IMG/VR virus record: IMGVR_UViG_3300026159_000398
DNA length: 64,000 nt
DNA from: a virus
Lineage: Duplodnaviria > Caudoviricetes
Direction: 5' to 3' (one strand)
Position 1 is the stretch's first letter. Every line of letters starts with the position of its first letter. Below the pieces are notes generated by a model. It was not told where the DNA came from. It made no database searches and saw only the letters and a program-made list of their open reading frames with translations. The translations under genes were made by a program, and so were the position numbers. Of the stretch, positions 30,239 through 46,706 are shown in pieces.

Positions 30239-30334
30239 ACACTCTCCTGAAAATTTGTTGTGATATATTAAATATAATAAAATTTTATCAAAAAGTAAAC
30301 TAAAAATTTACATTCTAATAAAATTTTAAACTTC

Positions 30335-31072: not shown

Positions 31073-31084
31073 TGTAACTTTGTC

Positions 31085-31414: not shown

Positions 31415-31756
31415 TCCTACGCCTTTTCGTCAAATTTCTGTCCTTTAAGAATTATATTCCGGGACCAATCCGTTTGTTTAGAATTATAGGGACATGGCTC
31501 ACTTATTTTTTCGATTGGTTTTACTTTTAGATTCTTTTTTACCGGAAACTGAATCACCACTGTTTGATTCGGCGCTGTCGGTTTTAACATCTTTTTTGCT
31601 CCCTAGTTTTAATATGATGCACATCAGTGTCGTGGCACCAATAATTACCCAATCATAGAATCCCATGTTATCCCTTCAGTTGTTTAAAAATGTAGTTGCC
31701 AAAAACTGCGGCAGCTATTAGAATCATCAACACTATCAGAATTACGGCCAATGTTT

Positions 31757-32530
31757 TCATTTCTTTTTTCCTATTTTCGCTATGTACTTTTGTAACAAAT
31801 TATTTTTTGGACCATCAATCATTGTTGAGTGGCTCCAAACAAGATTCTCAAAAAATGCATTGACTCGACTTACATCAATGTCAGCGTATTTATTGAACTT
31901 GCTCAACTTCAATGAGTTATCCAAAAGATACGCGGCCCATTCATCTTCAATACGGTCGGCAGTGTTGTATCTATTGGTCAACTGGGTTTGCATAATTTCT
32001 TGGTATGCTATTCCAGTTTTCTCGTAAATACGATTTACGAAAGTTTTGTAGCTCTTGTTTGCACAATAAAGAGCGTGAGACATTTCATGAATCAAAGTTG
32101 TTTCTGGGCTGACGCCATTTTCTTTGCAAGTTATTTTATTGATCGCAATGATCGCGAACTTGCGGAGTTTCTTGCATGTTTTTCCATTAGTGGTAAAACA
32201 TTCAAATTTCTCCAATGATTTCAGAACGGATTTTTCTTCTTTAGAAAGACTTTCATTAAATAGAGGATAAAATTCCGTCAAATGAAAATCCTGCATGAAG
32301 AGACCATAATATGAAGTCTCGTATGGATTTTCTTTTTCCAACATGAGACTCCAGTTTGAAAAATCTTCTGCTGTTATAAACTTCGCTTTGTCCTCAAAAA
32401 AGCATTCGAAATTGAATGCTTCACTTATTCGCAAGAAATAAGTTGTCATATCAAGCGGGTTTTCCACAAGATACAAAAAGATTCGAAGGTTGTTGATGTC
32501 AACGACCGTAGGCTTGATGAAATTGATCAT
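31757..32530 (-). CDS. zincin-like metallopeptidase domain protein
   Basis: LIHEMSHA (HExxH) and downstream DEWAAY. Confidence 0.6.
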   Translation of the reverse strand: MINFIKPTVVDINNLRIFLYLVENPLDMTTYFLRISEAFNFECFFEDKAKFITAEDFSNWSLMLEKENPYETSYYGLFMQDFHLTEFYPLFNESLSKEEKSVLKSLEKFECFTTNGKTCKKLRKFAIIAINKITCKENGVSPETTLIHEMSHALYCANKSYKTFVNRIYEKTGIAYQEIMQTQLTNRYNTADRIEDEWAAYLLDNSLKLSKFNKYADIDVSRVNAFFENLVWSHSTMIDGPKNNLLQKYIAKIGKKK

Positions 32531-34766
32531 GAATCGTTCCTGATTAAAATATCTTCGAGCTGCTTATGAAAATATTTTAATTCAGAAGCGGTCGCAGGTC
32601 TTATTTTTATTTGGTCGCCATTTGCCAGCGCCAGTTGAACCTCGGCCCATGAAAAGCGAGAATAGTGTTTATGGTGCTTTTCGTAGACCGAACTCATTAT
32701 GGTGCAAGATTTTGAATAAAAATCCTCGCCTATGAAAATTAAATTATGCGTCACTGGTTTTTTACTTTTTTTCATTTAATATCCTATCCATGTTGTCTAG
32801 GGCACGTTGAAAATGAAATGTCACCCAATCCGATATCGGCAATTGAAGACGTAAAAGCCATTTGAATCTGGTGACCAATTGTGAATAACCAATCCAGAAC
32901 GCAACTTGAATTCCGTAAAACCACGCTCTGAACCATTGGCTCCATGTGATGTAGTCAGGATTGTCTTTATTCATCAGCTGCACCTCATAGAAATTTCTGT
33001 TACTTGTTGTTTGTCTGTTTTTATTTCAGTAACAGACCAATCTTCTTTTGAAGAAGAAGGATATTCAGTAAGTGCCAATCCTAATGCCACTGATTCGCAT
33101 TCAGCAACTACAATGGTTTCTATTTCTTCAAAAGCTCCACGATTGCCATGCCAATAATATGAGCAATGAAAAACTTTTAAAGACTTAGTTTCTGTTTCAG
33201 TAAGTTTTTCTTCAAGTTTTTCTTCGAGTTTCTTTGCTTGAAATGCCCACCAATCACGCTCTTCCCATGTGAACATGAAACGCGGGCATTTAAGTTTTTC
33301 AGTCATTACTCATCGCCCTCCTCTTCTTTATCAGCCGAAGATTTTCTGCGCATTATCTTTTGGCCACCAGATCTCGCCAATTTCTTGAGTTCACGTTCTT
33401 TTTTCTTTTCAGCTTTGTAACGTTTGGCAGCAGCACGGTCTTCTTCAGTAATGAAGACAGTTTGGGCATCGTAGCCAAGTTCTTTTCGTTCGGCATGCAG
33501 AACATGAAGTTGTTCACGAAGCCCAAGATGTTCAGGGCAACCACGTTTTCCATTGGCAGTGTATTGCCAAATTTTCAACGTAAGTTCGTGCATTTGTTCA
33601 GTGATAGCTTCTATGCGAGCAGCATTCAACTTCTTGCGTTTCTTTTCTTCACGATACGCCTTGAGTTCACCACGTTTCCACTTATTCTTGCCACGCTTTT
33701 TACGGCCAGTAGGAGTGAGTTCTTCCTCTTCTTGCTCCTCAACAATACCGTCTTTCAAGGCTTCCATTGCGGTAAGGTCTTCCATGTTACTCTCCTCTTC
33801 TGAGTTAACGACGTTTGTCGGCGCTTTGAATTTCTGCTGCTAATTGATTATATCGAATCTCGATATATTTTTCTCCATTGTGGAGACGCTCATATATGTT
33901 GCTTGCATTACCAAAACTTTGACCATGTTCTACAAGCAAATATTCTTCCATATACCCAATGAGATGGGCTTTTGCGGCCATTATAGGATGACGATTTTTA
34001 TCCTTGAGCCACTCATGAAAATGTTTCAAATCATAATTCGCCATTTGCAATCCTCAGTAATTGTCCACAATATTTCTTGACACGCTTACGAGCATCATCA
34101 AGATGACGACCAGACAGGTGACGGCCCGACTTAAGCCAACAAGCATAATACGTCATGCGATGGGCATCAGGTCCGTTGAATCCACGAAAATTTTGATATT
34201 TGGAAGTTTCAGAGACTTGCTCGTCTCTTGTTTGGCGTTCATAGATGGCTAGAATGGCCCTCTCAAGCCACCTTTGATCAGTAGCTATTTTTGCCTCGAT
34301 ATGCTCTTTTGTTATGCTGTTCATGATAATATCATAACATTAAAAGAGGTTTTTGTAAATACTTTTATTAGATAATCAGGCGTTTATGATATTCTTCCGC
34401 CATAACTTCTTTTGTCTTACGGGGGTCATAGTCTCTTAAAAATTCAGAAACTATTTTGAGCGCCATTTGATTGGGTGTGGTTAATGAATCATTGTCCTTT
34501 GCGGCGTCACAAAGTTTTGTATAGGTGTCGTTTTCAAGTGCGAATGCGACGGTTTGGCAGTAAAGATTGTCTTTGACAACTTCACGAACTTTTTTAGCAC
34601 AACGTTCAATAAAAGCAATGCAATCATCAGGCCTCGATGATGAATAAACTTCTTTCCATTTGAAAAGTTTCTTTTTTTCGACAGCGTATGCTACTGAACT
34701 GCCTTGCATCACTCTTACAAAACGAAATTTATTATTCTTCATAGTCATCCTCAACAAGCGCTCCAC
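32527..34766 (-). other. cluster of small hypothetical genes (32527-32775, 32762-32983, 32974-33306, 33306-33785, 33805-34050, 34031-34324, 34368-34766)
   Basis: Tightly packed - strand ORFs with no recognisable motifs. Confidence 0.55.
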
Positions 34767-34944
34767 TTACGCATTGAAAACTTAATTGACACACTCCACA
34801 GTTTTCGCAGAGTTCAGGGTGAATAAAACATTTTTTGTATTGGCCACGAATATCAATTGGTTCAGTAGATTGAAATATCGCACCCATCGGGCATTGCATG
34901 ACGCAAAGCCCGCAGCCAATACACTTACTTTCAATTATCTTCAT
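34732..34944 (-). CDS. 2x[4Fe-4S] ferredoxin
   Basis: CIGCGLCVMQCP and CENCGVC..C. Confidence 0.85.
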   Translation of the reverse strand: MKIIESKCIGCGLCVMQCPMGAIFQSTEPIDIRGQYKKCFIHPELCENCGVCQLSFQCVSGALVEDDYEE

Positions 34945-35147
34945 ATCTTTTTGTTTAAGTGTAATTGTATTTCTTCGTCAATCAACTTCTCAAATGCATC
35001 ATCTTCGAGTGCATGCATTTTATCAGGGTTCATGGCGATTTGGTAAAGGATATTGTAAATCATTTGACCAAAACGAAGATCGGGGTATGTCTTCCATAAA
35101 CCACGAAGCTTTCCGATAATTCTGTCGATTCTGTCAATGTCTCTCAT
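34941..35147 (-). CDS. hypothetical protein (MRDxxRI..W..PDLRFGQ family)
   Basis: Motif recurrent in small phage proteins. Confidence 0.55.
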   Translation of the reverse strand: MRDIDRIDRIIGKLRGLWKTYPDLRFGQMIYNILYQIAMNPDKMHALEDDAFEKLIDEEIQLHLNKKI

Positions 35148-35428
35148 TTGTAACCTTTTTTAATACACTCTTCAATTTCTTTTTCGGACCACATTTTACG
35201 TTTGGCCCATGCACCAGCCTTTTTGATTTTGATGTTCAAAACAGGTTGATGATTGTCTTGAACTAATTTGAAGAACCACCAATAAAGTTTTTCTTCGTCT
35301 TTTGTGGATGTCATACAAAAATCGTATCCTAAATACTGAGGACCACCAGCTCTCATGTCAACAATATCATTACGCTCGCAGTCAATAGTGATCTCGAATA
35401 CGTTTTTTGCCATGATGTTCACCACCAT
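35144..35428 (-). CDS. hypothetical protein
   Basis: ORF downstream of tmRNA. Confidence 0.5.
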   Translation of the reverse strand: MVVNIMAKNVFEITIDCERNDIVDMRAGGPQYLGYDFCMTSTKDEEKLYWWFFKLVQDNHQPVLNIKIKKAGAWAKRKMWSEKEIEECIKKGYK

Positions 35429-35455
35429 CTTTAGAGTTGTGACTCACTCTTGATG

Positions 35456-35801
35456 TGGACCCGCGGAGAGTCGAACTCCGGTCTTACATAAATACAACTA
35501 ATGTTGAATTACAAGCTTTTTTCATTTTTCTATCTTTGGTAGTGCACCATAAAATGAATAAACGCGTAGCACCTAACATGTTTTTGTTTCAGTTGAAAGC
35601 CAACACCCAAATTGAATTCAATCAACCTATCCTCTAAATGAAGGTGATCAGTAGTCGAGGAATCTATCTGACACCATGTTGCTTAGTTATTAAGCAGCGA
35701 GTTGTTCTTCAGCATTTAACTGTTTTGCCCCGTTTAACCACTCTGAGCAAGTGGGCTTGCACCATTAACTTTACCTCTGCAATCGAAACCAGTTCGGGCC
35801 C
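35456..35801 (-). ncRNA. ssrA: tmRNA, tag peptide (A)AEEQLAA
   Basis: 5' GGGCCCG pairs with 3' CGGGUCC-A (G3:U alanine identity); T-arm CGGAG-UUCGACU-CUCCG; tag ORF GCT GAA GAA CAA CTC GCT GCT TAA TAA starting at 35713. Confidence 0.93.
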
Positions 35802-36524
35802 TCAGGTTCTTAATTCTTTAATATCTTTTTCAGTGATAACAATAAACTTATCACCTAAAATTTTTTTTGCAGCTTTAAATTTTGCTTTATTAACAGGATT
35901 TTTGACAGCAAAACTTGCTTTTATTTCTACTATTACATCTGTTTCAGGCAAATAAAAATCAGGGTAATAATAATGTTTTTGATTTTTAAAAAAATATAAA
36001 ATTCTATGTTCTTTTGTGTCGGCTTTTTGAAATAAAATATTATTTTGTTCTAAAAATTTCATGTAATTTAATTCATAATTAGATTGATAAATAAAATCTT
36101 TATAAATACCTTGTTTTCCTCTGCCATTAACATTTTTATTTTTAGGACTCCATGCATCTCTTGCTTTGGCGCGTTCAGTTTCGTTTTGATATCTTTTAGT
36201 TTGTGCTTCACTCATTTTCTTTTTAGCTATTTCTGAATGTGTTTTACCTAATCTGATAGTATTATTTTTCATTATTTTGCTATAACGTTTTCGTTCTTTT
36301 GGATTATTGAATCTAACTTTTTGTGATTCGCTAATACTTCTTAAACTAATATTGTTTGCTTTTAATACTCTTCGGATACATGTATCAGAACATCCAAACA
36401 ATTTAGCAATTTGTCTAGGAATTTGTTTTTCATGGACATACAATCGTATAATCTCATTTTGTTGTTCAGAAGTAAACTTAATCATGGTTTTATGCTTCTT
36501 TGAAGTCTTGACATCCATCTGCAT
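35802..36524 (-). CDS. homing endonuclease: HTH + NUMOD3 + PD-(D/E)xK
   Basis: RQIAKLFGCS HTH; YYPDFYLP..IVEIK. Confidence 0.8.
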   Translation of the reverse strand: MQMDVKTSKKHKTMIKFTSEQQNEIIRLYVHEKQIPRQIAKLFGCSDTCIRRVLKANNISLRSISESQKVRFNNPKERKRYSKIMKNNTIRLGKTHSEIAKKKMSEAQTKRYQNETERAKARDAWSPKNKNVNGRGKQGIYKDFIYQSNYELNYMKFLEQNNILFQKADTKEHRILYFFKNQKHYYYPDFYLPETDVIVEIKASFAVKNPVNKAKFKAAKKILGDKFIVITEKDIKELRT

Positions 36525-36693
36525 TTCGTGGCATCATAATCATTGCACCATATTTTTCAGACAATTTGGTACAAACAATATGTTGACCGAGAATTATCAA
36601 TTTGAAAGCATCTTTATTCATCGAAGGAAATAAAGTATGTAGTTCAACAATGGGAATATCTCCACCTCTGACACAAAATTCGCAGTTATGCAT
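36490..36693 (-). CDS. small Cys-rich hypothetical protein
   Basis: GGAGG SD before ATG 36693. Confidence 0.5.
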   Translation of the reverse strand: MHNCEFCVRGGDIPIVELHTLFPSMNKDAFKLIILGQHIVCTKLSEKYGAMIMMPRNADGCQDFKEA

Positions 36694-36702
36694 AATTCCT
36701 CC

Positions 36703-36780
36703 AAAAAAAATACCGTGGAGACCAAGCAAAAATCTTTTTAAAACCCGCCTATCTCCACCAGCTTGATTCTCCACGGTATT
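36703..36780 (-). ncRNA. promoter-proximal long hairpin with U8 tail (sRNA or leader terminator)
   Basis: AAUACCGUGGAGA / UCUCCACGGUAUU stem right after the TAATATAAT motif at 36791. Confidence 0.5.
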
Positions 36781-36801
36781 AACTTATATAATTATATTAC
36801 G

Positions 36802-36957
36802 TCATTCACTGCTTTGTTTAGATTTTTTATGCGCATCATCCGGAATTTTTTCGTCCCATGATAAGCAACTATAAATTCCGTTTTCTGGCGCTTTACAGAA
36901 ATGACATTCTGCTTCAGAAAGAACGATCTGCTTACTTTTTTTACAGTAACCTATCAT
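36802..36957 (-). CDS. small Cys-containing protein (51 aa, below the ORF-track cutoff)
   Basis: MIGYCKKSKQIVLSEAECHFCK..; ATGA overlap with the Ro60 stop. Confidence 0.45.
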   Translation of the reverse strand: MIGYCKKSKQIVLSEAECHFCKAPENGIYSCLSWDEKIPDDAHKKSKQSSE

Positions 36958-38570
36958 ATCTTTCCAGCAACAAATTCACTTATTACTCGAGGCGCATTTG
37001 CATCAAATCCTACGATGTCCAACATTCCAGCATCATTTGGGTCAGCAATTGAGAATCCATTACTGTTCATACCCACAACGATCAGACGAGCATCATGAAC
37101 AAATTGGTTACGGTATTGTTTCAATGCTTGCACAGGTTGAATATTTCCAGCCCATGTTTCATTGTCTGTGTAGACGATGAAAGCATCAAACATATATTTC
37201 TTTTCTTTTGCCCAAATCATTGGCAATGCGCAATCTGTTCCTCCGAAATTGACACCATCAACTTTGTTCAAAATGGCTTCAAAACTCATGTTTGGAGTAA
37301 TGTCAAGTTTTTGGAATCTGTTGTTGAAAGCCATGATTGTGTATTCTTTTTCAACACGAGCAGTTACCATAGCCATCAATGCTGAACATTCAGCACATGT
37401 TAAAATTCCACTTGAAATTTCAGAACTCATAGAGCCTGATACGTCTATTCCAAGAAGCATTCTTTTTCCAGAAGGCTCAATTGTTTTGAAGCTCAAGTAA
37501 AACGCTTGTTCAAGAGCATCAACAATTTTTCGCACTGGAGTCCATGTCAAGTTGCCTCTGAAGCCACGACCCATGCTATAAGTTTTTTGAGCGAGAAGAA
37601 TATCCATAGGGTGAATACGGCTTTTCTTTAGATACGCTTCATCTGTGATTTTACTTACGACCATGCTCACGTATTCATTTTGGCCACTATCAAGAACTCC
37701 AATAGAAGTCAGACGATTCAAGTTGCGAATGAGAGCCTTCAGAGGAATATCTTTCAAAGCTGCTTTCCATACTGCGACATTGTTTTTTATCTCAGTTGGC
37801 CATGCATCTTGAGGAATCTTGTGCTCAGCGATCAATTCAATAGAACGCTTGACATCTTCTGCACGAAGAGACTTCAATTCTTCGGTTGCATAAACCAAAG
37901 GAAGATCTTCTGTAAACTCGTTCTTTACGGCATACTTAAACAACTGTGCGTGCACAGGAGTCATAGGTTTGACGTGTGCAGAACGCAGAATATCTTTGTG
38001 TGTCCATTGGTTCTCTGTTCCTTGAACAGTACGGCCTGCATATTTGATCATTTGATATTCAAGTTTTGTTGGGTCCATTGAATACCAGTTGCCAAATGCG
38101 TTACGAATGGCACGTCCCCAGCTTCTCAGATCGTCAATGTACTGGGCAAATGTAAACATGTGTGTTCCAGTACGGCAAATCTCAGGGAACATTCTCGATG
38201 CCGCATGTTTGATTATCTTGTCGTCTGTTTCTGAAAACAAAACTGCAAGCAGCATAATTGCTGGGTCATTCTTGTGTGCACGGCCTTCGACAGAAATATT
38301 GTACAGCATTGTAAGAACTTTTCCTGCATCTTCCTTAATGCAAGCAATGCTGTTCTTGATATTCTCTTTTGTCAGTTTGTTTTCACGTATGTAGTAAGTG
38401 CCGCCCTCACTTCCGAGAATCAGGAATCTTTCAAGACGTTTCCATTTGTCAAGTGCAAATGAGAATCCACCGGCTGAGTTGGCAACCATGTCTGCCTCAC
38501 GACCTGGTATAGGTTTTGATTGAGGAGTAACAGTTTTCTTTGCTTGACTGTTTGTGTAGTTGTGTGCCAT
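36954..38570 (-). CDS. rsr: Ro60/Rsr TROVE-domain RNA-binding protein
   Basis: NSAGGFSF..LERFLILGSEGGTYY, RTGTHMF, WGRAIR, SRIHP, DVSGSM vWA, GGTDCALP, TDNETW, GFDA. Confidence 0.95.
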   Translation of the reverse strand: MAHNYTNSQAKKTVTPQSKPIPGREADMVANSAGGFSFALDKWKRLERFLILGSEGGTYYIRENKLTKENIKNSIACIKEDAGKVLTMLYNISVEGRAHKNDPAIMLLAVLFSETDDKIIKHAASRMFPEICRTGTHMFTFAQYIDDLRSWGRAIRNAFGNWYSMDPTKLEYQMIKYAGRTVQGTENQWTHKDILRSAHVKPMTPVHAQLFKYAVKNEFTEDLPLVYATEELKSLRAEDVKRSIELIAEHKIPQDAWPTEIKNNVAVWKAALKDIPLKALIRNLNRLTSIGVLDSGQNEYVSMVVSKITDEAYLKKSRIHPMDILLAQKTYSMGRGFRGNLTWTPVRKIVDALEQAFYLSFKTIEPSGKRMLLGIDVSGSMSSEISSGILTCAECSALMAMVTARVEKEYTIMAFNNRFQKLDITPNMSFEAILNKVDGVNFGGTDCALPMIWAKEKKYMFDAFIVYTDNETWAGNIQPVQALKQYRNQFVHDARLIVVGMNSNGFSIADPNDAGMLDIVGFDANAPRVISEFVAGKI

Positions 38571-38600
38571 TTTATATCTCCATTTAGATTATTTGCGACC

Positions 38601-38638
38601 AAAAAAAACCACCCGTATCATCATTTGGTACGGGTGGT
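38601..38638 (-). terminator. intrinsic terminator in the Ro60 leader
   Basis: ACCACCCGUA / UACGGGUGGU stem + U8, ~30 nt upstream of the Ro60 ATG. Confidence 0.8.
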
Positions 38639-38705
38639 CTTGTGGTTGGTTCGTAGCTTCAAAGATTTTACCTCCTCGCTAGGAACCATCATACAATAGG
38701 TATCT

Positions 38706-38757
38706 GATAACGCTTATCCCCCGTACCTTTTAAATAAGGTCAAATTTTTGGAAAGCG
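38706..38757 (-). promoter_or_regulatory. loop-closed Ro-binding helix in the Ro60 leader
   Basis: CGCUUUCC-AAAAA-UUUGACCUU-loop-AAGGUACGGGGGAUAAGCG-UUAUC; same motif as the Y RNA at 38857. Confidence 0.65.
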
Positions 38758-38856
38758 ATATTGCTCTCTATTGAGAGCAGCGATTTTTAAAACCGTTAAG
38801 TCATAAAAATCTCCTGTAAAAATAAGTTCGTTGAGACTAGTAACTAATAAAAAATT

Positions 38857-38945
38857 GATCGGTCAAGTTGATGGATTGGGAGAGTGGCACATGGCCACGA
38901 TACACACCAAAAGTTTGTAGATAACCCAAGTCCTTCCGTACCGTC
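38857..38945 (-). ncRNA. Y RNA (Ro60 partner)
   Basis: 5' CGGUACGG..GGACUUGGGUUAUC pairs with 3' CCCAAUCC..CUUGACCG, matching the GGUCCGA/CUUGAC bulged helix of Y RNAs; own promoter at 38959 and a U-run after it; next to Ro60. Confidence 0.75.
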
Positions 38946-38974
38946 TAAACTATATAGAATTATATTACATGCGA

Positions 38975-39460
38975 CTATTTTTTTATAGGTTTTTTTTCTT
39001 TTTTTGCCACTTTTTTCTTGCGTGCGGCTTTAACTTCTGCTAATCTTTCGTCTTCTTTTTCTTGAAAAGCTTTCTGCAGTGCTATAGATTGTTCGTGATG
39101 GATTTTGGTATTGACATTCATTGTTGCCATAAGCCAATTTTTACGGAGCCATCTTATAAGTTCAACAATTGGAAGAGATGTAATTCCTGCGACAACTATA
39201 TCAGAACCACCAATAACCCAATACATTTCATTGACGGTTTTGAATGTCACGAATCCTGAAAAAATCCATCCAATCATATTAACATGAAGCCACCCAATAC
39301 AAAATACAACTCCAGCAAATATACACATTATCGCTACTGAAATGGCTATTATCAATAAAAACCCCGCAAGACATCGTGGTCCTGTGAATAAAGCATGTTT
39401 AAGTTCTTCTCTTTTCAGTCGAAAGAATTCTTTCCAGATCATTTTAAGTTTATTATCCAT
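38975..39460 (-). CDS. membrane protein
   Basis: Two hydrophobic segments. Confidence 0.55.
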   Translation of the reverse strand: MDNKLKMIWKEFFRLKREELKHALFTGPRCLAGFLLIIAISVAIMCIFAGVVFCIGWLHVNMIGWIFSGFVTFKTVNEMYWVIGGSDIVVAGITSLPIVELIRWLRKNWLMATMNVNTKIHHEQSIALQKAFQEKEDERLAEVKAARKKKVAKKEKKPIKK

Positions 39461-39462
39461 AT

Positions 39463-39699
39463 TTATTTCCTTACCATTACTTTACAATTTCTCATTATCG
39501 ATGTAGAAAAACAATATGTTTTTGAATAATCTGTATTTTGGCGACAAATTGTTGATTCTTTGATTGCAACTTTGTATTCTTGTTCTGAACATTTATATTC
39601 TTCAAGAGCATAGTTGTAATTTGTTCCAACTTCATGTCCCAGACAACCAACAAAAAATAGTAAACAAATAAACAATAGTGCTTTTTTCATTACTTCCAC
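39463..39699 (-). CDS. putative lipoprotein
   Basis: MKKALLFICLLFFVGC. Confidence 0.5.
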   Translation of the reverse strand: MEVMKKALLFICLLFFVGCLGHEVGTNYNYALEEYKCSEQEYKVAIKESTICRQNTDYSKTYCFSTSIMRNCKVMVRK

Positions 39700-40823
39700 C
39701 TTTTCATTTTTGACGATATTGGCGAATGGCTTATAAATACATCAACAATCTTGAATTTCCTTTTGAGAGTGAAAAAAATCCATGATACAAATTGATCTTC
39801 ATCATCAAAATAGATTATTTCACCATCGTGTATAAGCCGCCATTCATTCTCAATGCAATCAAGGCATGTAATTACCAGATTGAAAGGAACATTTCGTAAA
39901 TAAGCATCTTTATAAATGCCATATTCAAGCCAATCATAATCAAGAAGCCCTACTCTGAATTTACCTTGCGGCGAATCATCAAAGTTTTGTTCAAACGGAT
40001 TTGGCTTGATATTATGAGGAATATGTTCAGTTGGGTGCGGACCATTTCCATGACGAGTATGGTACGCTCGAGTGACAATCCAAGGAAAAGGCGTATATTG
40101 AACAAAATTCCTGCTTCCTGTGTTGGAAGGAGTCACATGCGGAAAAAATCCATTATGTTGGTCAAGAAGCAATCCTTGGGAGCCTTCATAAATAAGACTT
40201 TTGAATTCTTTGCCTTTTCTATCTTTTGTAAGATTGTCAGGTGCCATTTTTACAAAAGGATTATTCGTAATAATGAAGCTTGCGTTCAGAAAATTCTTCA
40301 CATATTCAGTATCATATTCGCATTTATAGTGTTTAGCAATAAGCTTCAATTTTTCATGAAGAACAGATTGATAAAATAAATCTTCAAATTTTAGATGATA
40401 AAAGTTTTCTTCACGACGGTATGTCGCGTTGATTCCAAGCCCGCAACTTCCATGAGCATTTTGGCTTTCTGCTATTCTGCCAGCTCCAATATCGTATGGA
40501 GTTGTCACAGGACAGCGGCGATCAATGTAGAGTTCGGGTTCAATGCCCATTTTCATGAGCATATCAAGTTCGACTAAAAGAGCTACGGGGTCAATGGTAC
40601 ACTCAGGGAACCAATAAGTCGGAATTCCTCTGAGTGTACCACTGCCGAAACTTGAGAACACATGGCTAGTTTTTTCATCTACAACAACTTGATGACCTGC
40701 CTGTTGGCCTCCGCAGTAACGTACCACAAGCGGGCGTTTTAATTTCTGACAAAGGTAGTCAACAACCATACCTTTCCCTTCATCACCAAAACCTGCGCCA
40801 ATTACTGCGTTGCTAACATTCAT
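39690..40823 (-). CDS. purA: adenylosuccinate synthetase-like protein
   Basis: GAGFGDEGKG, GGQQAGH, HGSCGLGI, EGSQGLLLD, FPHVTPS, TRHGNGP. Confidence 0.8.
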   Translation of the reverse strand: MNVSNAVIGAGFGDEGKGMVVDYLCQKLKRPLVVRYCGGQQAGHQVVVDEKTSHVFSSFGSGTLRGIPTYWFPECTIDPVALLVELDMLMKMGIEPELYIDRRCPVTTPYDIGAGRIAESQNAHGSCGLGINATYRREENFYHLKFEDLFYQSVLHEKLKLIAKHYKCEYDTEYVKNFLNASFIITNNPFVKMAPDNLTKDRKGKEFKSLIYEGSQGLLLDQHNGFFPHVTPSNTGSRNFVQYTPFPWIVTRAYHTRHGNGPHPTEHIPHNIKPNPFEQNFDDSPQGKFRVGLLDYDWLEYGIYKDAYLRNVPFNLVITCLDCIENEWRLIHDGEIIYFDDEDQFVSWIFFTLKRKFKIVDVFISHSPISSKMKRWK

Positions 40824-41737
40824 TAAAGTATGATCTCCTGTTTTGTTGTGTTGTTTGTTCCTGCTGTGTTGCTCATATTAGGGATATCGCCTTGACGATT
40901 TTTGACAATAATGTCAGAAATAATTCCATCGATATCCTTGTGACTGTCTGCAACAAATAAATGATCTTTAAGAATCTGTTTCCAATCATCTACCGTTGAT
41001 GACATACTTCCTGCATACGTTTCTACCACGTGAATGTGATAGCATTCGTATTTCTTGGAAGCTTCTGCAAGCAATTCTTCTGTGGTAAAATCATGATATT
41101 GGCCAGGGCCCATGATTCTTTCGAGATCGCGTGCATTAAGAGTCTTCAAAACTGGCTCATCACCAATCGTTATGAGAATTCCTTTTTTGCCGCGTTTTTC
41201 GAAACAATCGATGGAGGTATGGAATGCTGCAAAATACCATGCCAACATGTAGCTTTCACCAGTGTTTCCACCACCACGGCCTTCAAGCCAGGTGTCTCCG
41301 AGCCAGTTGTCAAGAAGCTCATCACTTGTTTCAAACTGACCAACCTGAAGAGGTGCCGAATCGCATGTGTGGTCACCTATCGCAAGAAATAAAACTTGAG
41401 GATGCTTTATTCCTTTTTGATAAATCTTGTTCATGATGTTAGGGAGTCCCTTCTTTATCATGAAATTAGGAACAGAACCCATCGAACCAGTAACATCAAG
41501 TGCGATAATTATCGCATCAGATTCAGGGTGTTCTTCAGAATCACGCGATTCACGAATTTTTACGCCATTGGGATTCATGCTCGCCTTCATGCCATGAGCA
41601 TCATAAAGGCGATTATTATCCAGCATATCAAAATCGGCCATGTTGTCGACTTTGAATTTGCTTTTGAGGCGCAAATTACGAGGGTTGAGTTCAGCATCTC
41701 CTACGTAATTGACGATCGAATAACTTCCGTGACCCAT
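40823..41737 (-). CDS. vWA-domain protein
   Basis: IIIALDVTGSMG MIDAS; GGGNTGESY; ITIGDE. Confidence 0.8.
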   Translation of the reverse strand: MGHGSYSIVNYVGDAELNPRNLRLKSKFKVDNMADFDMLDNNRLYDAHGMKASMNPNGVKIRESRDSEEHPESDAIIIALDVTGSMGSVPNFMIKKGLPNIMNKIYQKGIKHPQVLFLAIGDHTCDSAPLQVGQFETSDELLDNWLGDTWLEGRGGGNTGESYMLAWYFAAFHTSIDCFEKRGKKGILITIGDEPVLKTLNARDLERIMGPGQYHDFTTEELLAEASKKYECYHIHVVETYAGSMSSTVDDWKQILKDHLFVADSHKDIDGIISDIIVKNRQGDIPNMSNTAGTNNTTKQEIIL

Positions 41738-41739
41738 AG

Positions 41740-42096
41740 TTACTTCGCTCCTTCGCCGAACAGTTGTTTGTATTGCTCTTTGGCGATCTCGAGAGTTATT
41801 TCGAGATTCCTGATGTCAATGCCCCTCTTGATATCCGTTTCGGTAAAAACAGCGGCATCAAAATCTTTGGGAGCAACAACAGTGCTGACTGCGTTGTTAG
41901 GTGCGAGGTCGATGCTGTTTTCGCGTACGCGTCTCAGCTTCTTGATATCATCTTCGATATCTTCGATCTTGCGCCTGTAAAGACGTTCAGTGTCTTCAAA
42001 GATCGCTTGAGCACGATCTTCACGAATCTGTTTCGCATTGCGTTTCAGAGACGTAAGAAAAGTACCTTCAACTTTTACTTCTTCATTATCTACCAT
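41740..42096 (-). CDS. coiled-coil hypothetical protein
   Basis: AGGAG SD; heptad pattern. Confidence 0.6.
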   Translation of the reverse strand: MVDNEEVKVEGTFLTSLKRNAKQIREDRAQAIFEDTERLYRRKIEDIEDDIKKLRRVRENSIDLAPNNAVSTVVAPKDFDAAVFTETDIKRGIDIRNLEITLEIAKEQYKQLFGEGAK

Positions 42097-42112
42097 GCGC
42101 TTTCTCCTTTTA

Positions 42113-42415
42113 TTAAGATTTTAAAATTGCGTTTATAGCGTCAATTTTCTTTTGTAATGCATTGCGTTCTTTTACGGCATTTTCATCGATACGGTATTCT
42201 CTTTTAAGAATCTCATCTACCCATTCTTTGTTGAGAATTGCAACACCGTGAGCAGCTTCTTCAGTAAAGAAATATCCACGAGTTTCGCCAATCATTACTG
42301 AATAAAAACTTCTGACAATGTCCTCAATCATTTTATCTTTAAAATGCTTATTGAGCTTTGTCAACTCCTGATAGACATCATCAGGAACTTCAAATTCTAA
42401 TTTTACTTTTTTCAT
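42113..42415 (-). CDS. hypothetical protein
   Basis: ORF in the - strand chain. Confidence 0.5.
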   Translation of the reverse strand: MKKVKLEFEVPDDVYQELTKLNKHFKDKMIEDIVRSFYSVMIGETRGYFFTEEAAHGVAILNKEWVDEILKREYRIDENAVKERNALQKKIDAINAILKS

Positions 42416-42835
42416 TTAATCCTTATTGTATTGAAGTGTGCCATCGGGATAAATGACAACAATTCGTTTTCCTGATTTTCTGGCGTAACGAATAGTTGCC
42501 CATGTGCCTGAACGAAGTTCTTCAGCATATTCCCATGGTGTTGCGATCAAAAGTCCGCATTCATCTACAATATCATGATTGCGAACTAAATAAGGTTTTT
42601 CATCACGTGTTTCGTTAAAGGACGTGAATGCTCTTTTAGAAGGATTTTCAGGCGGATGACAGACCACATGAACATCAGGTTGAACATAAATTACAGCTTC
42701 AACTGCTTCTTTGTCTGCGCCAACACAGTCACCATGGTGAAATTCATCAATACGAAGTTTTTTGATAATTTCACCAAAGGTGCGTAACTGTTCGGCAGTC
42801 ATGCCGTTTTGTGTTCCTGTAAATCCGACCTTCAT
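42416..42835 (-). CDS. SLOG-family (DprA/YspA-like) nucleotide-binding protein
   Basis: VGFTG, HGDCVGAD, RNHDIVD, SGTWATIRYA. Confidence 0.75.
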   Translation of the reverse strand: MKVGFTGTQNGMTAEQLRTFGEIIKKLRIDEFHHGDCVGADKEAVEAVIYVQPDVHVVCHPPENPSKRAFTSFNETRDEKPYLVRNHDIVDECGLLIATPWEYAEELRSGTWATIRYARKSGKRIVVIYPDGTLQYNKD

Positions 42836-42841
42836 GAATAA

Positions 42842-43483
42842 TTATATTGGTGCGGCAGGTCCTATGTTTAGGAAAAAAGTGGGCCAGCGCTTCTTAAATT
42901 CCCAAAGCAAAGGAATCATAATGCGCTTCATGTCTGGGTGGGCGGCGTCTGCGGTTCTTAATTCAAAGATATGACGCCATTCGCGGATATTAGCTTTTAC
43001 GACAATTTCAGTCTTCAAATCATTTGGTAGGATGCCCCTCGCTGCGTTAGGCGGCAAGCCAGCGGCAATCATTTTCATGTACATTTCTTCAACCGCAATA
43101 AGAGTTTTAATGTAATCATTAAGGACTACACTCCCTTCACTTCCGGTAAGCCAATACGGATTTATGAATGTAATCTCATTACCAAATTTGTCTTTTGAGT
43201 AGTTGCAATAACGGGTGCTTTCTTGTGCGAAGCTGCACATACGATGGCGGACAATCTCATGTGTAAATCCACGATTATGAATGAATCGAACAGTGATGTC
43301 TGCAAATTCAATCATGGCTTCATGGCCACGTTTGATTATGTTTTCTACAAAATGTTCTGCAGAATCTTCTGTGATTTTGTCTTCGGATTTGTAGCAAGTC
43401 CTTGCTGCACATTCAATTGCTTGAAGAAGAATTTCGGCGGTGCTATCTATGAGGATGTGAAAACTCGGCTCTATTAACTGCAT
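42842..43483 (-). CDS. thyX: flavin-dependent thymidylate synthase
   Basis: RGH, HEIVRHRMCSFAQESTRY, ARGILP, NIREWRH..LR..AHP. Confidence 0.95.
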   Translation of the reverse strand: MQLIEPSFHILIDSTAEILLQAIECAARTCYKSEDKITEDSAEHFVENIIKRGHEAMIEFADITVRFIHNRGFTHEIVRHRMCSFAQESTRYCNYSKDKFGNEITFINPYWLTGSEGSVVLNDYIKTLIAVEEMYMKMIAAGLPPNAARGILPNDLKTEIVVKANIREWRHIFELRTADAAHPDMKRIMIPLLWEFKKRWPTFFLNIGPAAPI

Positions 43484-43707
43484 TTACTCTCTCCTGAATT
43501 TTCAGATCGGTTTTCAAATTGATCACATGTTTCTGAACTTTGTTTGCTTATTATGTTTTCTTTATCAATATGGCAATCGCCTTTAACATTTTGAACTGAT
43601 TTTTCTCCAAAAATTTCATGAATAAATGGGTTATAAATGCTATGCCACGATTTGCAATTAAAACACACTTTTTCTTTTGGATGAGATGCTTCTTTTACTT
43701 TGAACAT
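43474..43707 (-). CDS. small Cys-rich hypothetical protein
   Basis: CFNC..C..C; AGGAG SD. Confidence 0.5.
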   Translation of the reverse strand: MFKVKEASHPKEKVCFNCKSWHSIYNPFIHEIFGEKSVQNVKGDCHIDKENIISKQSSETCDQFENRSENSGESKCS

Positions 43708-43721
43708 TTACTCTCTCCTGT

Positions 43722-44384
43722 TTAAAAAATTATCTTTCTTCCTTTAATCCAACCTTGATCTAACCATTTTTGAAGATCAGATTTAGGAATTGATTTACTT
43801 ATTTTTGTCTCTAAACTATGAATCCAACAATTACCATAATTTGAATTATTTTTACCTTGCTGATATTTAGAATTCGCTTTTCCTATTTTCTTTTTGGATT
43901 CATCTGTATGTTTTTTGCCAGTCCATGACCAGCCGCCTTTCTTTTCAAATGTTTTACGAGTTGAATTAACTCTTTTTTGTAATTGTTCTTTAGAATTCCA
44001 TTTATCTAGATATGCTTTTCTAAATTCTAAATCATTTTTTACTTTATCACCGGTAATTCTACCACCAATTAAACCAGACTTCGAAGGTGATTTTTCTAAA
44101 TCTGTAGCTTGCCCACCAACCTGACAGTTATATGTATCATCACGAGCAACAAATTCGTCATCTACAATTTGTTGTTCTCTACGATTCATATCTTCATAAT
44201 CTTCACAAAAAAATAAAATTTCTTTTTTAAAATTTTCTTTTCCAAATAATTTAATATCACGATGCAAAAGTATTCCACTACCCAAATAATTGTCATTCGG
44301 ATTTGTAGTTTGATGTTGACCGATATAAATTTTATTATTGACTAAACATGTTGTTTTATAAATAGTGAAATATTGTTTTTTCAT
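43722..44384 (-). CDS. GIY-YIG (Seg-like) homing endonuclease
   Basis: TIYKTT..IYIGQH, YLGSG, FKKEIL, YN..GG; NUMOD3. Confidence 0.88.
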   Translation of the reverse strand: MKKQYFTIYKTTCLVNNKIYIGQHQTTNPNDNYLGSGILLHRDIKLFGKENFKKEILFFCEDYEDMNRREQQIVDDEFVARDDTYNCQVGGQATDLEKSPSKSGLIGGRITGDKVKNDLEFRKAYLDKWNSKEQLQKRVNSTRKTFEKKGGWSWTGKKHTDESKKKIGKANSKYQQGKNNSNYGNCWIHSLETKISKSIPKSDLQKWLDQGWIKGRKIIF

Positions 44385-44455
44385 AAAAAACCTCTTAATA
44401 AATTATATTAAGAGGCAGTTCAATTTTTGTTCAATATTTTTTATTGAACTCTGAT

Positions 44456-44529
44456 TATCCTCCGGCAGAGTCGAACTGCCATCACTGAGTTCGTAGCCCA
44501 GTACTCTAAATCCATTGAGCTAGGAGGAC
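44456..44529 (-). tRNA. tRNA-Arg(ACG)
   Basis: Cloverleaf; anticodon loop CUACGAA. Confidence 0.9.
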
Positions 44530-44533
44530 GAAT

Positions 44534-44611
44534 TACCCTCAGAAGGACTTGAACCTCCATGCATCCAATTAACCTTTCAACGCGTTCGTAGCGCGAGGGT
44601 ATACGGAGAGA
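44534..44611 (-). ncRNA. atypical tRNA-Arg(ACG)-like RNA lacking a normal D arm
   Basis: CGCG-CUACGAA-CGCG arm and GGAGG-UUCAAGU-CCUUC T arm; weak acceptor stem. Confidence 0.6.
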
Positions 44612-44615
44612 AATG

Positions 44616-44687
44616 TCCTGAGAGTCTGAGTTGAACAGACACCTGCTGGGCTTCAACTAACCGTGCGACCAAGTACACTATCTCAGG
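44616..44687 (-). tRNA. tRNA-Phe(GAA)
   Basis: CCUGAGA/UCUCAGG acceptor; loop UUGAAGC. Confidence 0.85.
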
Positions 44688-45261
44688 TAAAATATAATTC
44701 TGGCAATTCTTGTTCAGTAACGACAAAAAAATTATCGCCATATTGTTTATTTGCGGCTTTTAATTTAGCCTGAATTTTTGATTCCTTTAATCTAAAATGA
44801 GGTTTTATTTCCACTATACTTTTTTCTCTTGGTAAATAAAAATCAGGATAGTAGTAATGTTCATTGCCTTCAAAAGTATATTTGACTCTAAATTTTTTAT
44901 TATCTGCTCTTTCATAAGGAATTTTATATTCATCAAGAAGTTGCATGAATTTGAGTTCAAATGAAGATTCATAAGGAATGCCATTATAAATTCCATTTAT
45001 ACTTTTTAATCTTTTATTGCTGGGTTCCCATCCGTCACGAATATGTTGTTTATGTTCTTCGGAAAGTTTCTTTCCTTTTCGAGAATTACTTATTTTAAGT
45101 TTTGTTTCTTGCGAAATTTTATATCCTTTAGAACGATTCTTTCCGATGCATGACACACTTATTTTTAATTTTGTTTCTTGGGAAACTTTGTGTCCTTTGA
45201 GTGAATCGCTAATTTTTTGATTTCGTGCTGATGAATATTTGAAACCCTTTTTTCTTGACAT
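44683..45261 (-). CDS. homing endonuclease, NUMOD3 + PD-(D/E)xK
   Basis: SQETKLKIS repeats; YYPDFYLP..IVEIK. Confidence 0.8.
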   Translation of the reverse strand: MSRKKGFKYSSARNQKISDSLKGHKVSQETKLKISVSCIGKNRSKGYKISQETKLKISNSRKGKKLSEEHKQHIRDGWEPSNKRLKSINGIYNGIPYESSFELKFMQLLDEYKIPYERADNKKFRVKYTFEGNEHYYYPDFYLPREKSIVEIKPHFRLKESKIQAKLKAANKQYGDNFFVVTEQELPELYFT

Positions 45262-45365
45262 GATAATTACCTCTACTATAATTATAAACGGAAGTTAGGC
45301 TGATTGAGTAGAGCAATCAGCCAAGGGAGCTACCCTCTTTCCTTCCTGTATTTATAATTATATTA
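45262..45365 (-). promoter_or_regulatory. structured endonuclease leader, copy 1 (SD-sequestering pseudoknot)
   Basis: GAGGGUAGCUCCCUU core; hairpin loop CUCUACU complementary to AGUAGAG at the SD. Confidence 0.7.
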
Positions 45366-45369
45366 CATG

Positions 45370-45651
45370 TCAAAGATTTTTTTGATATTGTTTTTTAAAT
45401 TTTGTTAATTTCTTCCAGCTTTTTGTTGTATAACAACTGGGATATTTTTCAAGATTCCCCCACCTATTTAGATATGAAGGGCCTCTTCTTTTACGTAACA
45501 AAATTCCATCATCAATATCTTTTTGCCATCTGCATCTCTCTTGTTGAACTCTTTGACGACGATATCCAAGCCATCTGTGTTCAGCAAGCATCCACCATTT
45601 AGGGCAAGGATGTTCTTCATATCCCCACCACTTTGACCAATGATAGTACAT
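45370..45651 (-). CDS. small basic Trp-rich protein
   Basis: AGGAGG SD; preceded by an MTFK minigene and hairpin. Confidence 0.55.
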   Translation of the reverse strand: MYYHWSKWWGYEEHPCPKWWMLAEHRWLGYRRQRVQQERCRWQKDIDDGILLRKRRGPSYLNRWGNLEKYPSCYTTKSWKKLTKFKKQYQKNL

Positions 45652-45760
45652 TATAACCTCCTAAGTTTTCACTTAAAAGTCATAAAGTACCTCCATAAAA
45701 AGTTTTTTCATAATAACATCCTTTTTGAATTTTAACATGAACAATGTTAATGTTCAGCTT

Positions 45761-45961
45761 TTATGTTAATGACACCATTGTTTGATGTTCACATGTATCT
45801 TCAGCATCTTTTTTGGTATTATTCAATTCACAAATTCCTGTAGTACTTTGAAATTCTTGTAAGTCTTTTTCTGTATGTTTATAAAGACTTTCCCACTTTT
45901 GGCAATTTGCACAAATTTTTAATTGTCTGTCAATTGGTTTTCTCATTGTTATTTTCCTCAA
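45761..45961 (-). CDS. small Cys-rich hypothetical protein
   Basis: CANC..GIC..C, similar to 43474-43707. Confidence 0.45.
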   Translation of the reverse strand: MRKITMRKPIDRQLKICANCQKWESLYKHTEKDLQEFQSTTGICELNNTKKDAEDTCEHQTMVSLT

Positions 45962-46601
45962 ATTCTTTTTTTATTCTTATAATTTGTGTTCTACTAATTT
46001 TTAGATTTTCTGAAGCTCGTGATATCCAGCCGCGTTTATCATAATCATATAATTTTATTTTTTTATATAATTCAGCACGTATTTGTTTGGCTTTTTCTGA
46101 TGAATATGTTAAATTTAATTTTTTGAGACAACGAGTTATATGAACAACACTGCAATTAAATTCTTTAGCTAATTCTTCTGTATTGATATTACTTTCAAAT
46201 AATCTTTTTAATTTTTCAAAATCAATTTCTTTTTTATTCCATGCCTTTTGTGAATTTTTTGCGCCTTTATTCCATGGTGAACATCCCTTTCTGTTACCTG
46301 GAATTGTATGAATAAATCCGCCTTGACCACCTTCTAAAATATTGTAACCATAAAGTCGATTATTACTTTGAAAAAACTTTATGCATTCTTTTTCAGCTTT
46401 ATTAAGTAATTTTTCTGAATTACACCAACCTAGAATTATTTTTTCTAAATGAATAGAACCACGTTTTTGAATAACTTGACGAATTATTTTTCCTGAGCCA
46501 AAATAATTCTTTATACCTTTTAAACTTTGATTAGTTGTTTTACCAACATAAACTTTTTTTGTAAAATGATCTTTAATGAGATAAATGTAGCCGTATGACA
46601 T
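45930..46601 (-). CDS. GIY-YIG homing endonuclease with HTH
   Basis: GYIYLI..VYVG, YFGSG, GYNILEGG. Confidence 0.85.
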   Translation of the reverse strand: MSYGYIYLIKDHFTKKVYVGKTTNQSLKGIKNYFGSGKIIRQVIQKRGSIHLEKIILGWCNSEKLLNKAEKECIKFFQSNNRLYGYNILEGGQGGFIHTIPGNRKGCSPWNKGAKNSQKAWNKKEIDFEKLKRLFESNINTEELAKEFNCSVVHITRCLKKLNLTYSSEKAKQIRAELYKKIKLYDYDKRGWISRASENLKISRTQIIRIKKEFEENNNEKTN

Positions 46602-46706
46602 GATAATTAGCCTCAACATAATTATAAATATAGAAGTGAGACCAGTAAGTTGAGGTTACTGGTCAAGGGAGCTACCCTCTGTCCTTCTGATATTATAATT
46701 ATATTA
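46602..46706 (-). promoter_or_regulatory. structured endonuclease leader, copy 2
   Basis: Same core; loop CCUCAAC complementary to GUUGAGG at the SD. Confidence 0.7.

What the first reader, a model, noticed from the sequence alone, without database searches (positions are those of the whole stretch)
45262..46706. Covarying pseudoknot leader shared by two unrelated homing endonuclease genes
Seen: two copies (45262-45365 before a PD-(D/E)xK gene; 46602-46706 before a GIY-YIG gene) share promoter - GAAGGA.AGAGGGUAGCUCCCUUG - hairpin - CUUC - UUUAUAAUUAU - SD - UAAUUAUC-AUG. The 9-bp hairpin stems differ but stay paired (GGCUGAUUG/CAAUCAGCC versus GACCAGUAA/UUACUGGUC). The loops covary with the SD region: CUCUACU with AGUAGAG, CCUCAAC with GUUGAGG. 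Inference: a riboswitch-like or protein-responsive translational repressor that moves independently of nuclease family.
Basis: seen in the sequence. Interest (0 to 1): 0.72.

Follow-up and report, generated by a model that had tools for sequence, protein, structure and literature searches.

The report
Ribosome-site-locking leader RNA of phage nucleases
Two selfish DNA-cutting-enzyme genes of an uncultured T4-like phage are preceded by the same folded RNA leader, in which one hairpin loop always pairs with the gene's own ribosome-binding site; it most likely keeps nuclease synthesis low, and it belongs to a widespread RNA family absent from Rfam and from the papers I could search.

Summary
On the minus strand, 45365..45262 and 46706..46602 each hold a promoter motif, helix P1, hairpin P2, a 9-bp hairpin P3, and a 7-nt P3 loop fully complementary to the bases over the Shine-Dalgarno (SD) site.

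My covariance model finds 8 copies in this 205-kb phage: 7 before GIY-YIG genes and 1 before a PD-(D/E)xK gene. It finds more than 30 further copies in other phage contigs, before GIY-YIG, HNH and REase-like genes, and one in cultured Enterocloster phage CB457P1.

- **Covariation:** 97% of cells are paired and 16 of 18 pairs change on both sides.
- **Loop specificity:** 30 of 36 loops match their own SD flank over at least 6 nt. Only 5% of swapped pairs do.
- **Kissing loop:** in this phage the SD sits in the loop of an AU-only hairpin (P4), which would make the contact loop-to-loop. P4 never varies, so it is only predicted.

There is no Rfam match, even at permissive thresholds, and I found no paper describing it.

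Best reading: a cis-acting translational lock. It resembles the T-even endonuclease hairpins, but the promoter lies upstream of the whole lock. Nothing supports ligand or protein sensing. Earlier agents of this scan noted the same family on this and other genomes.

The parts
45356..45364 (-). Copy A: promoter motif AATATAATT, ending about 9 nt before P1
   Evidence: The motif is strongly enriched in the genome. 59 of 131 TATAATT are preceded by AA, and ATATAATT[AC]TA occurs 28 times against about 2 expected. It also precedes non-nuclease genes. The transcription start is inferred, not mapped.
45290..45346 (-). Copy A: three-way junction. P1 is 45346..45342 with 45294..45290. P2 hairpin is 45337..45323. 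P3 hairpin is 45322..45298, with its 7-nt loop at 45313..45307.
   Evidence: Model R1 scores it at 80 bits. The minimum-energy fold recovers P1 to P4. Covariation is shown.
45262..45285 (-). Copy A: P4 hairpin. Arms are 45285..45279 and 45269..45263. Its 9-nt loop holds the P3-loop complement AGUAGAG (45277..45271) and the SD site GAGG (45273..45270).
   Evidence: Loop-to-SD pairing. P4 is predicted by folding but never varies among the 8 copies.
44683..45261 (-). Copy A: 192-aa homing-type nuclease with NUMOD3 repeats and a PD-(D/E)xK core (PD...EIK)
   Evidence: Pfam NUMOD3, with weaker TnsA-like and endonuclease I matches. PHROG endonuclease families. Motif read from the translation.
46697..46705 (-). 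Copy B: promoter motif AATATAATT
   Evidence: Same as for copy A.
46632..46688 (-). Copy B: three-way junction. P1 is 46688..46684 with 46636..46632. P2 is 46679..46665. P3 is 46664..40, with its loop CCUCAAC at 46655..46649.
   Evidence: Model R1 scores it at 77.9 bits. The P1 pair G-C of copy A is A-U here.
46602..46625 (-). Copy B: P4 hairpin. Arms are 46625..46619 and 46609..46603. Its loop holds GUUGAGG (46617..46611), which is complementary to the P3 loop and includes the SD site.
   Evidence: The minimum-energy fold of this copy prefers an alternative in which the P1 3' strand pairs near the SD site.
45930..46601 (-). Copy B: 223-aa GIY-YIG homing endonuclease (N-terminus GYIY...YVG)
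   Evidence: PHROG 314 'homing endonuclease', E 3.7e-15. Weak Pfam GIY-YIG and SegE matches.

Best explanation
The element is a cis-acting translational lock carried by mobile nuclease (homing endonuclease) cassettes.

1. A phage promoter (AATATAATT here, T4-type TATAAATA in several relatives) starts the transcript a few bases before P1. This step is inferred.
2. P1, P2 and P3 fold into a three-way junction at the 5' end. This is shown by covariation.
3. When the ribosome-binding region emerges 10-20 nt later, the 6-7-nt P3 loop pairs with the bases just upstream of and inside the SD site. This is shown by covariation and a swap control.
4. In this phage the SD site is presented in the loop of an AU-only hairpin (P4), so the contact is a loop-to-loop kiss. 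This is predicted only.
5. The 30S subunit is kept off the SD site, and the nuclease is made at a low level. It may be made only from transcripts that a ribosome catches before the lock closes. This is inferred by analogy with the T-even endonuclease genes.

The whole unit, from promoter to AUG, moves as one piece between nuclease families.
For: **Copies and gene context**
- The genome holds eight copies, all directly upstream of nuclease genes and on the sense strand.
- Downstream genes belong to at least four nuclease types.
- Seven of the genome's 13 GIY-YIG genes carry the leader, as does 1 PD-(D/E)xK gene.

**Family alignment of 36 distinct sequences**
- 97.3% of cells are paired, against 77% in shuffles and 39-57% for slid partners.
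- 16 of 18 pairs change on both sides.
- No shuffle out of 500 reaches the observed values.

**Loop-to-SD pairing**
- 23 of 36 loops have 7 contiguous Watson-Crick pairs with their own downstream region, and 7 more have 6.
- Among 1252 swapped pairs, only 5 reach 7 nt and 60 reach 6 nt or more.
- Within the genome, 6 of 7 pseudoknot pairs change on both sides.
- Copy A and the copy at G000:101333 are near-identical, yet they differ by three compensated double changes, one each in P1, P3 and the loop-to-SD pairing.
- The loop duplex is as strong as or stronger than SD with anti-SD in 6 of 8 copies: -6.8 to -10.1 against -4.6 to -9.9 kcal/mol.

**RNA level and sense strand**
- G-U pairs occur in the stems and in the pseudoknot.

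**Precedent**
- RBS sequestration is the documented control of the T-even endonuclease genes (PMC2988022).
Against: - No expression data exist. Repression is inferred from the pairing alone.
- The transcription start is not mapped.
- P4 never varies, so covariation says nothing about it. It is absent in other phages.
- Two copies have minimum-energy folds with an alternative pairing, P1 3' strand with the SD site.
- A few family members lack the loop complement (the L064/L107 type).
- Nothing explains how, or whether, the lock is ever opened.
- Nothing explains why P2 is kept.
Confidence: 0.7

Rival explanations
1. It is a regulated switch. The three-way junction or P2 binds a metabolite, a phage or host protein, or a second RNA, and this opens or tightens the loop-to-SD contact.
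For: - Junction bases are conserved: GACA(R) after P1 and U-N-A before the P1 3' strand.
- P2 is retained in all members although it plays no part in SD pairing.
- P2 apical loops are self-complementary far more often than chance.
Against: - No Rfam riboswitch or any other family matches, even at E up to 5-10.
- The P2 sequence varies freely.
- Conserved unpaired bases are few, and part of their conservation comes from how I found the sequences.
- There is no conserved alternative helix and no second site for the loop.
- Hosts appear very diverse, so a protein partner would have to be universal.
Confidence: 0.12
2. It uses T4-type two-transcript logic. The TATAATTAT box in the 5' arm of P4 is a second, embedded promoter, so short transcripts lacking P1-P3 are translated while longer ones are locked.
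For: - The box lies 6-7 nt before GAGG. Bona fide AATATAATT promoters of this genome with short leaders have the same spacing, as does the classical hairpin of the neighbouring GIY-YIG gene.
- The P4 arm sequence is invariant, which suggests a constraint on sequence beyond pairing.
Against: - The promoter motif is marked by AA before TATAATT (59 of 131 occurrences). All internal boxes have TT or CT instead, and two copies lack TATAAT altogether.
- Family members in other phages have no promoter-like box between P1 and the SD site.
- The true promoter motif sits upstream of the whole lock in 7 of 8 copies.
Confidence: 0.1
3. It is mainly an mRNA stability or processing element. A base-paired 5' end would protect the transcript from 5'-end-dependent decay, or the fold could be a cleavage site or a self-cleaving RNA. 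The SD pairing would then be secondary.
For: - The promoter spacing puts the 5' end within a few bases of P1.
- The fold sits at the very start of the transcript.
Against: - The strongest and fastest-evolving covariation is the loop-to-SD contact, which a stabiliser does not need.
- No known ribozyme family matches.
Confidence: 0.06

Closest known systems
RBS-sequestering hairpins of T-even phage homing-endonuclease genes (I-TevI, I-TevII, I-TevIII, segB; mobE of Aeh1), as reviewed in PMC2988022
   Same: - A cis RNA structure hides the SD site of a phage homing-endonuclease gene.
- It is linked to a phage (late-type) promoter.
- Its purpose is to hold nuclease synthesis down.
- A textbook example sits in this very window, before the GIY-YIG gene 43722-44384.
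   Different: - Here the SD site is bound by a hairpin loop held on a conserved three-way junction, as a pseudoknot or kissing loop. It is not buried in a simple stem.
- The promoter lies upstream of the whole lock, so its own transcripts are locked. In T4 the late promoter sits inside the hairpin and yields unlocked transcripts.
- This is one homologous RNA family shared across many phages and nuclease families, not a set of case-by-case hairpins.
SD-occluding pseudoknots of riboswitches and r-protein leaders (for example SAM-II, preQ1-II, the S15 leader; recalled from general knowledge)
   Same: A long-range loop or linker pairing that covers the SD site is the means of translational control.
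   Different: No ligand or protein partner is known. No sequence or model match was found. The architecture differs, being a three-way junction plus a variable loop.
Rfam RF02996 int-alpA motif (a lead from earlier scan note e1-5354283)
   Same: It is said to have a hairpin loop complementary to the SD site of phage or integrase-linked genes.
   Different: No int-alpA match to any leader, at E up to 5-10, on six loci or at the gathering score on the window. The leader is not a member.
Loop-to-loop kissing complexes with 6-7 paired loop bases (ColE1 RNAI/RNAII, HIV-1 DIS; recalled from general knowledge)
   Same: Two hairpin loops pair through all or nearly all of their bases, as predicted here for the P3 and P4 loops. 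P2 loops are often 6-nt palindromes like the HIV-1 DIS.
   Different: Here the P3-P4 contact is intramolecular and controls translation. The P4 hairpin and any P2 dimerisation are untested.

Membership tests
Uncatalogued phage nuclease-leader family (three-way junction plus loop-to-SD pairing) | P1, P2 and P3 helices in the same order, supported by covariation | tested here: met
   Model R1 scores both window copies at 78-80 bits. 97.3% of cells are paired and 16 of 18 pairs covary.
Uncatalogued phage nuclease-leader family (three-way junction plus loop-to-SD pairing) | P3 loop complementary to the bases at or just upstream of its own SD site | tested here: met
   7 of 7 nt in both window copies and 6-7 nt in all 8 genome copies.
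Uncatalogued phage nuclease-leader family (three-way junction plus loop-to-SD pairing) | Lies immediately upstream of a homing-type nuclease gene, on the sense strand | tested here: met
T-even type RBS hairpin with embedded late promoter (I-TevI, segB, mobE) | The SD site is sequestered by a cis RNA structure | tested here: met
   The pairing is shown by covariation. Repression itself was not tested.
T-even type RBS hairpin with embedded late promoter (I-TevI, segB, mobE) | A promoter inside the structure, so that its transcripts lack the inhibitory arm | tested here: not met
   The true motif AATATAATT lies upstream of P1. The internal boxes lack the AA hallmark and are absent in relatives. 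Transcript mapping would settle it.
T-even type RBS hairpin with embedded late promoter (I-TevI, segB, mobE) | A simple stem that contains the SD site | tested here: not met
   The SD site is bound by a distant hairpin loop.
Any Rfam 15 family (riboswitches, ribozymes, int-alpA and the rest) | Covariance-model match | tested here: not met
   Nothing at the gathering score on the window. Nothing on the leaders at E up to 10 (L003, L004) or up to 5 (L008, L016, L041, L169).
Riboswitch | Specific ligand binding that changes the fold | not testable with these tools
   This needs in-line probing, SHAPE or ITC.

The most novel reading that the evidence does not exclude
The lock may be regulated rather than constitutive. 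P2's apical loop is a 4-6-nt palindrome in most variants (AGCU, UGAUCA, UGGCCA, GUGCAC, GCAUGC). It could let leader RNAs dimerise loop to loop, or dock a symmetric factor. Nuclease translation would then respond to the concentration of leader transcripts, for example late in infection or during co-infection. That would be a new kind of RNA-level dosage sensor for selfish genes.
Probability: 0.1. Interest if true: 0.8.

Novelty: new variant of a known kind. Interest (0 to 1): 0.62.

Why it matters
Homing endonucleases are toxic if over-made. How phages restrain them is known only from a few T-even cases with ad hoc hairpins.

Here a single homologous, strongly covarying RNA module is reused across many uncultured phages. 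It comprises a promoter, a three-way junction and a loop that tracks its own ribosome-binding site. It sits in front of at least four unrelated nuclease families and reaches up to 6 copies in 33 kb. That makes it a portable 'expression governor' that travels with selfish genes.

It is a clean candidate for a new Rfam family and a natural, tunable translational lock. A copy in a cultured Enterocloster phage offers a system in which to test it. The copies in one genome all have different loop and SD-flank pairs. This gives a natural compensatory-mutation series for studying kissing or pseudoknot control.

Tried and rejected
- **DNA similarity to GenBank phages.** The 2.7-kb region gave no match in near or distant mode.
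- **Relatives of the GIY-YIG protein in IMG/VR.** The search for related loci confirmed none.
- **First pattern scan.** Most of the 38 hits to the P2 16-mer were chance or tRNA-like. Only about a dozen were true members.
- **Second pattern scan.** Only about 17 of 118 loci were true members.
- **Rfam.** Nothing at the gathering score or at permissive E-values. I therefore rejected membership of int-alpA, the riboswitches and the self-cleaving ribozymes.
- **A second 'parking' site for the P3 loop.** None lies within -200..+400 nt.
- **Embedded promoter in the P4 arm.** I considered it and down-weighted it because the AA hallmark is missing.
- **P2 as an invariant protein or ligand site.** Rejected, because other copies carry quite different, covarying P2 sequences.
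- **PDB sequence search for the PD-(D/E)xK protein.** Nothing useful came back.
- **Literature.** Six full-text searches found no description of such a leader.

Full report
**Observation**

All genes here lie on the minus strand. Read on that strand, 45365..45262 and 46706..46602 each contain the following, in order:
- a promoter-like AATATAATT box;
- a 5-bp helix P1 (GGAAG with CUUCC in copy A, AGAAG with CUUCU in copy B);
- a small hairpin P2, identical in the two copies;
- a 9-bp hairpin P3 with a different but paired stem in each copy;
- a 7-nt P3 loop;
- the 3' strand of P1;
- an AU-rich stretch, the Shine-Dalgarno (SD) site, and the AUG.

The P3 loop is fully complementary to the 7 nt that overlap the SD site: CUCUACU with AGUAGAG in copy A, CCUCAAC with GUUGAGG in copy B. 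The shared P2 17-mer occurs exactly twice in the window, against 0.08 expected.

- The 192-aa protein has NUMOD3 repeats and a PD...EIK nuclease core.
- The 223-aa protein is a GIY-YIG homing endonuclease.

**Copies in the genome**

The window is part of a 205-kb IMG/VR record. Its gp20-type portal is only about 25-27% identical to those of T4-like cyano-, flavo- and enterophages, so it is a distant T4-superfamily phage.

I built covariance model R1 for P1, P2 and P3. It finds eight copies in the genome. Seven precede GIY-YIG genes and one, copy A, precedes the PD-(D/E)xK gene.

The four copies outside my first motif search carry quite different P2 sequences, so P2 is a covarying hairpin and not an invariant site. 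All eight P3 loops differ. Each loop's complement occurs exactly once within -200..+400 nt, always at the SD site.

Copy A and the copy at G000:101333 are near-identical, yet they differ by three compensated double changes, one each in P1, P3 and the loop-to-SD pairing.

On an alignment of the eight copies:
- 6 of 7 loop-to-SD pairs change on both sides;
- 8 of 9 P3 pairs change on both sides;
- 3 of 5 P1 pairs change on both sides;
- no shuffle out of 500 reaches the observed values.

**The family beyond this genome**

Two pattern scans of IMG/VR, filtered with R1, gave 39 matches, of which 36 are distinct (alignment A5). On A5:
- 97.3% of cells form standard pairs, against 77% in shuffles and 39-57% when partners are slid;
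- 16 of 18 pairs change on both sides.

Loop-to-SD complementarity is specific to each leader:
- 23 of 36 loops have 7 contiguous Watson-Crick pairs with their own downstream region, and 7 more have 6;
- among 1252 swapped loop/downstream pairs, only 5 reach 7 nt and 60 reach 6 nt or more.

Downstream genes include GIY-YIG+NUMOD3, HNH (with or without NUMOD3), a CapR/treble-clef+REase-like protein, and the PD-(D/E)xK type.

Some fragments are dense with copies: 6 in 33 kb and 4 in 12 kb.

A member also sits in cultured Enterocloster phage CB457P1 (OP172753.1, 8655-8711). It is unannotated, lies upstream of an annotated I-TevI-like gene, and lies just downstream of a group I intron core.

**Anatomy specific to this phage**

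In the eight copies the SD site lies in the 8-9-nt loop of an AU-only hairpin, P4, with arms AUAAUUA and UAAUUAU. The P3 loop would therefore kiss the P4 loop. The minimum-energy fold recovers P1 to P4 in most copies.

P4 never varies, and it is absent from relatives, where the SD site sits in a single-stranded linker. P4 is therefore predicted, not shown.

The loop-to-SD duplex (-6.8 to -10.1 kcal/mol) is as strong as or stronger than SD with anti-SD in 6 of 8 copies.

**Promoter**

AATATAATT is a real motif of this genome:
- 59 of 131 TATAATT are preceded by AA, against a 14% background for that dinucleotide;
- ATATAATT[AC]TA occurs 28 times against about 2 expected.

It precedes many non-nuclease genes as well. 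In 7 of 8 leaders it ends about 9 nt before P1, so the transcript should begin a few bases before P1. In 9 of the 36 family members, two of them this genome's copy A and a weak L115 case, TATAAATA lies within 45 nt upstream. In seven of these, all from other phages, it starts 8-16 nt before the model match.

The TATAATTAT box inside P4 could be a second promoter, as in the T4 design. However, all internal boxes have TT or CT in place of the AA hallmark. Two copies lack TATAAT altogether, and relatives have nothing comparable. I give this rival about 10%.

**Mechanism**

The best-supported reading is a cis-acting lock on translation initiation. The three-way junction folds first and holds P3 so that its loop captures the SD region as that region emerges. 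30S binding is then reduced.

What is shown:
- the helices;
- the loop-to-SD pairing;
- the association with nuclease genes.

What is inferred:
- the transcription start;
- repression itself;
- the kissing geometry.

I found no sign of how the lock is relieved. There is no alternative conserved helix, no second target for the loop and no Rfam aptamer. Constitutive or kinetic attenuation is therefore the economical reading.

**Comparison with what is known**

The review PMC2988022 describes RBS-sequestering hairpins for I-TevI, I-TevII, I-TevIII, segB and mobE. In those, a late promoter placed inside the structure makes late transcripts translatable. The present family shares the aim and the target but differs in three ways:
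- the architecture is a junction plus a pseudoknot or kiss, not a simple stem;
- the promoter lies upstream of the lock;
- it is one homologous, mobile RNA family.

The same window also holds a classical T4-type case. The GIY-YIG gene 43722-44384 has an 11-bp hairpin (44416..44390) that buries its SD site, with AATATAATT embedded in it.

Rfam 15 has no matching family, at the gathering score or at permissive thresholds. Six full-text literature searches found no description.

**Earlier notes of this scan**

Earlier agents had already reported the same family on this genome and on others. I re-derived independently the count of eight copies, the covariation and the absence from Rfam. The idea that the SD site sits in a second loop came from one of those notes, and I then checked it by folding and pair counting. 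A lead to Rfam int-alpA did not hold for these leaders.

**Unexplained**

P2 apical loops are self-complementary far more often than chance. Of 23 distinct P2 sequences, 17 contain a 4-nt palindrome and 10 contain a 6-nt palindrome. Shuffled loops average 9.3 and 2.4, and none of 2000 shuffles reaches the observed values. The P3 loops, as a control, give 6 of 35 and 1 of 35.

This may point to loop-to-loop dimerisation or to a symmetric partner. The P2 types are related to one another, and one of my scans was biased towards one P2 type, so I report it as a lead only.

**Verdict**

The structure is real and strongly supported, and it is widespread and uncatalogued. It is a new variant of the known theme of RBS sequestration in phage homing-endonuclease genes. 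Interest 0.62.

Noticed in passing
window 44390-44416 (-), before the GIY-YIG+NUMOD3 gene 43722-44384: A classical T4-type control element. An 11-bp hairpin (dG -14.3 kcal/mol, z -5.1) buries the SD site AAGAGG. The phage promoter motif AATATAATT (44409..44401) is embedded in it, so promoter-started transcripts would lack the inhibitory arm. The phage therefore uses both designs side by side.
   Followed up: partly
whole genome G000; in the window for example 45356-45364, 46697-46705 and 44401-44409 (-): AATATAATT(A/C)TATA is a strongly enriched promoter-like motif. 59 of 131 TATAATT are preceded by AA. It often lies only 6-9 nt before an SD site. T4's TATAAATA is not enriched (30 found, about 42 expected by my estimate).
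   Followed up: partly
P2 hairpins of alignment A5; window 45323-45337 and 46665-46679 (-): P2 apical loops are 4-6-nt palindromes far more often than chance or than P3 loops (AGCU, UGAUCA, UGGCCA, GUGCAC, GCAUGC). This could mean RNA dimerisation or a symmetric partner.
   Followed up: partly
L169 (Enterocloster phage CB457P1, OP172753.1), locus 1123-1454 and 1493-1549: A group I intron core (RF00028, 93.6 bits) lies directly upstream of a leader copy and an annotated I-TevI-like gene. The flanking 'hypothetical' CDSs may be the exons of one split gene. None of this RNA is annotated in GenBank.
   Followed up: partly
L008 12823-12882 (-): A leader copy whose downstream HNH-type frame has ATA in place of the ATG start, and whose loop-to-SD helix holds one G-U pair. 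It is probably a decaying cassette.
   Followed up: no
L064, L107, L123, L135 (near-identical leaders): A variant with a longer P2 and a P3 loop CUUCGAAC. It has no complement near the SD site, so either the lock is lost or the loop has another target.
   Followed up: no
window 46602-46691 (-) and G000:C1:101333-101392: The minimum-energy folds of two copies prefer to pair the P1 3' strand (CUUCU) with the SD region (AGAGG). P1 5' strands are themselves SD-like (GGAGG or GGAAGG) in most of the family, so a second way of masking the SD site is always available.
   Followed up: no
window 35453-35801 (-) and 44456-58806 (-): A phage-encoded tmRNA (100.8 bits) and 22 tRNA genes. The nuclease cassettes are interleaved with the tRNA genes.
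   Followed up: no
G000:C1 about 182030-182077 (+): Another GIY-YIG gene without the leader has a simple hairpin (CUCAAAUGGUA with UACCAUUAGAG) that overlaps its SD site. Most other leaderless nuclease genes abut the upstream gene and look like cassettes without their own promoter.
   Followed up: no
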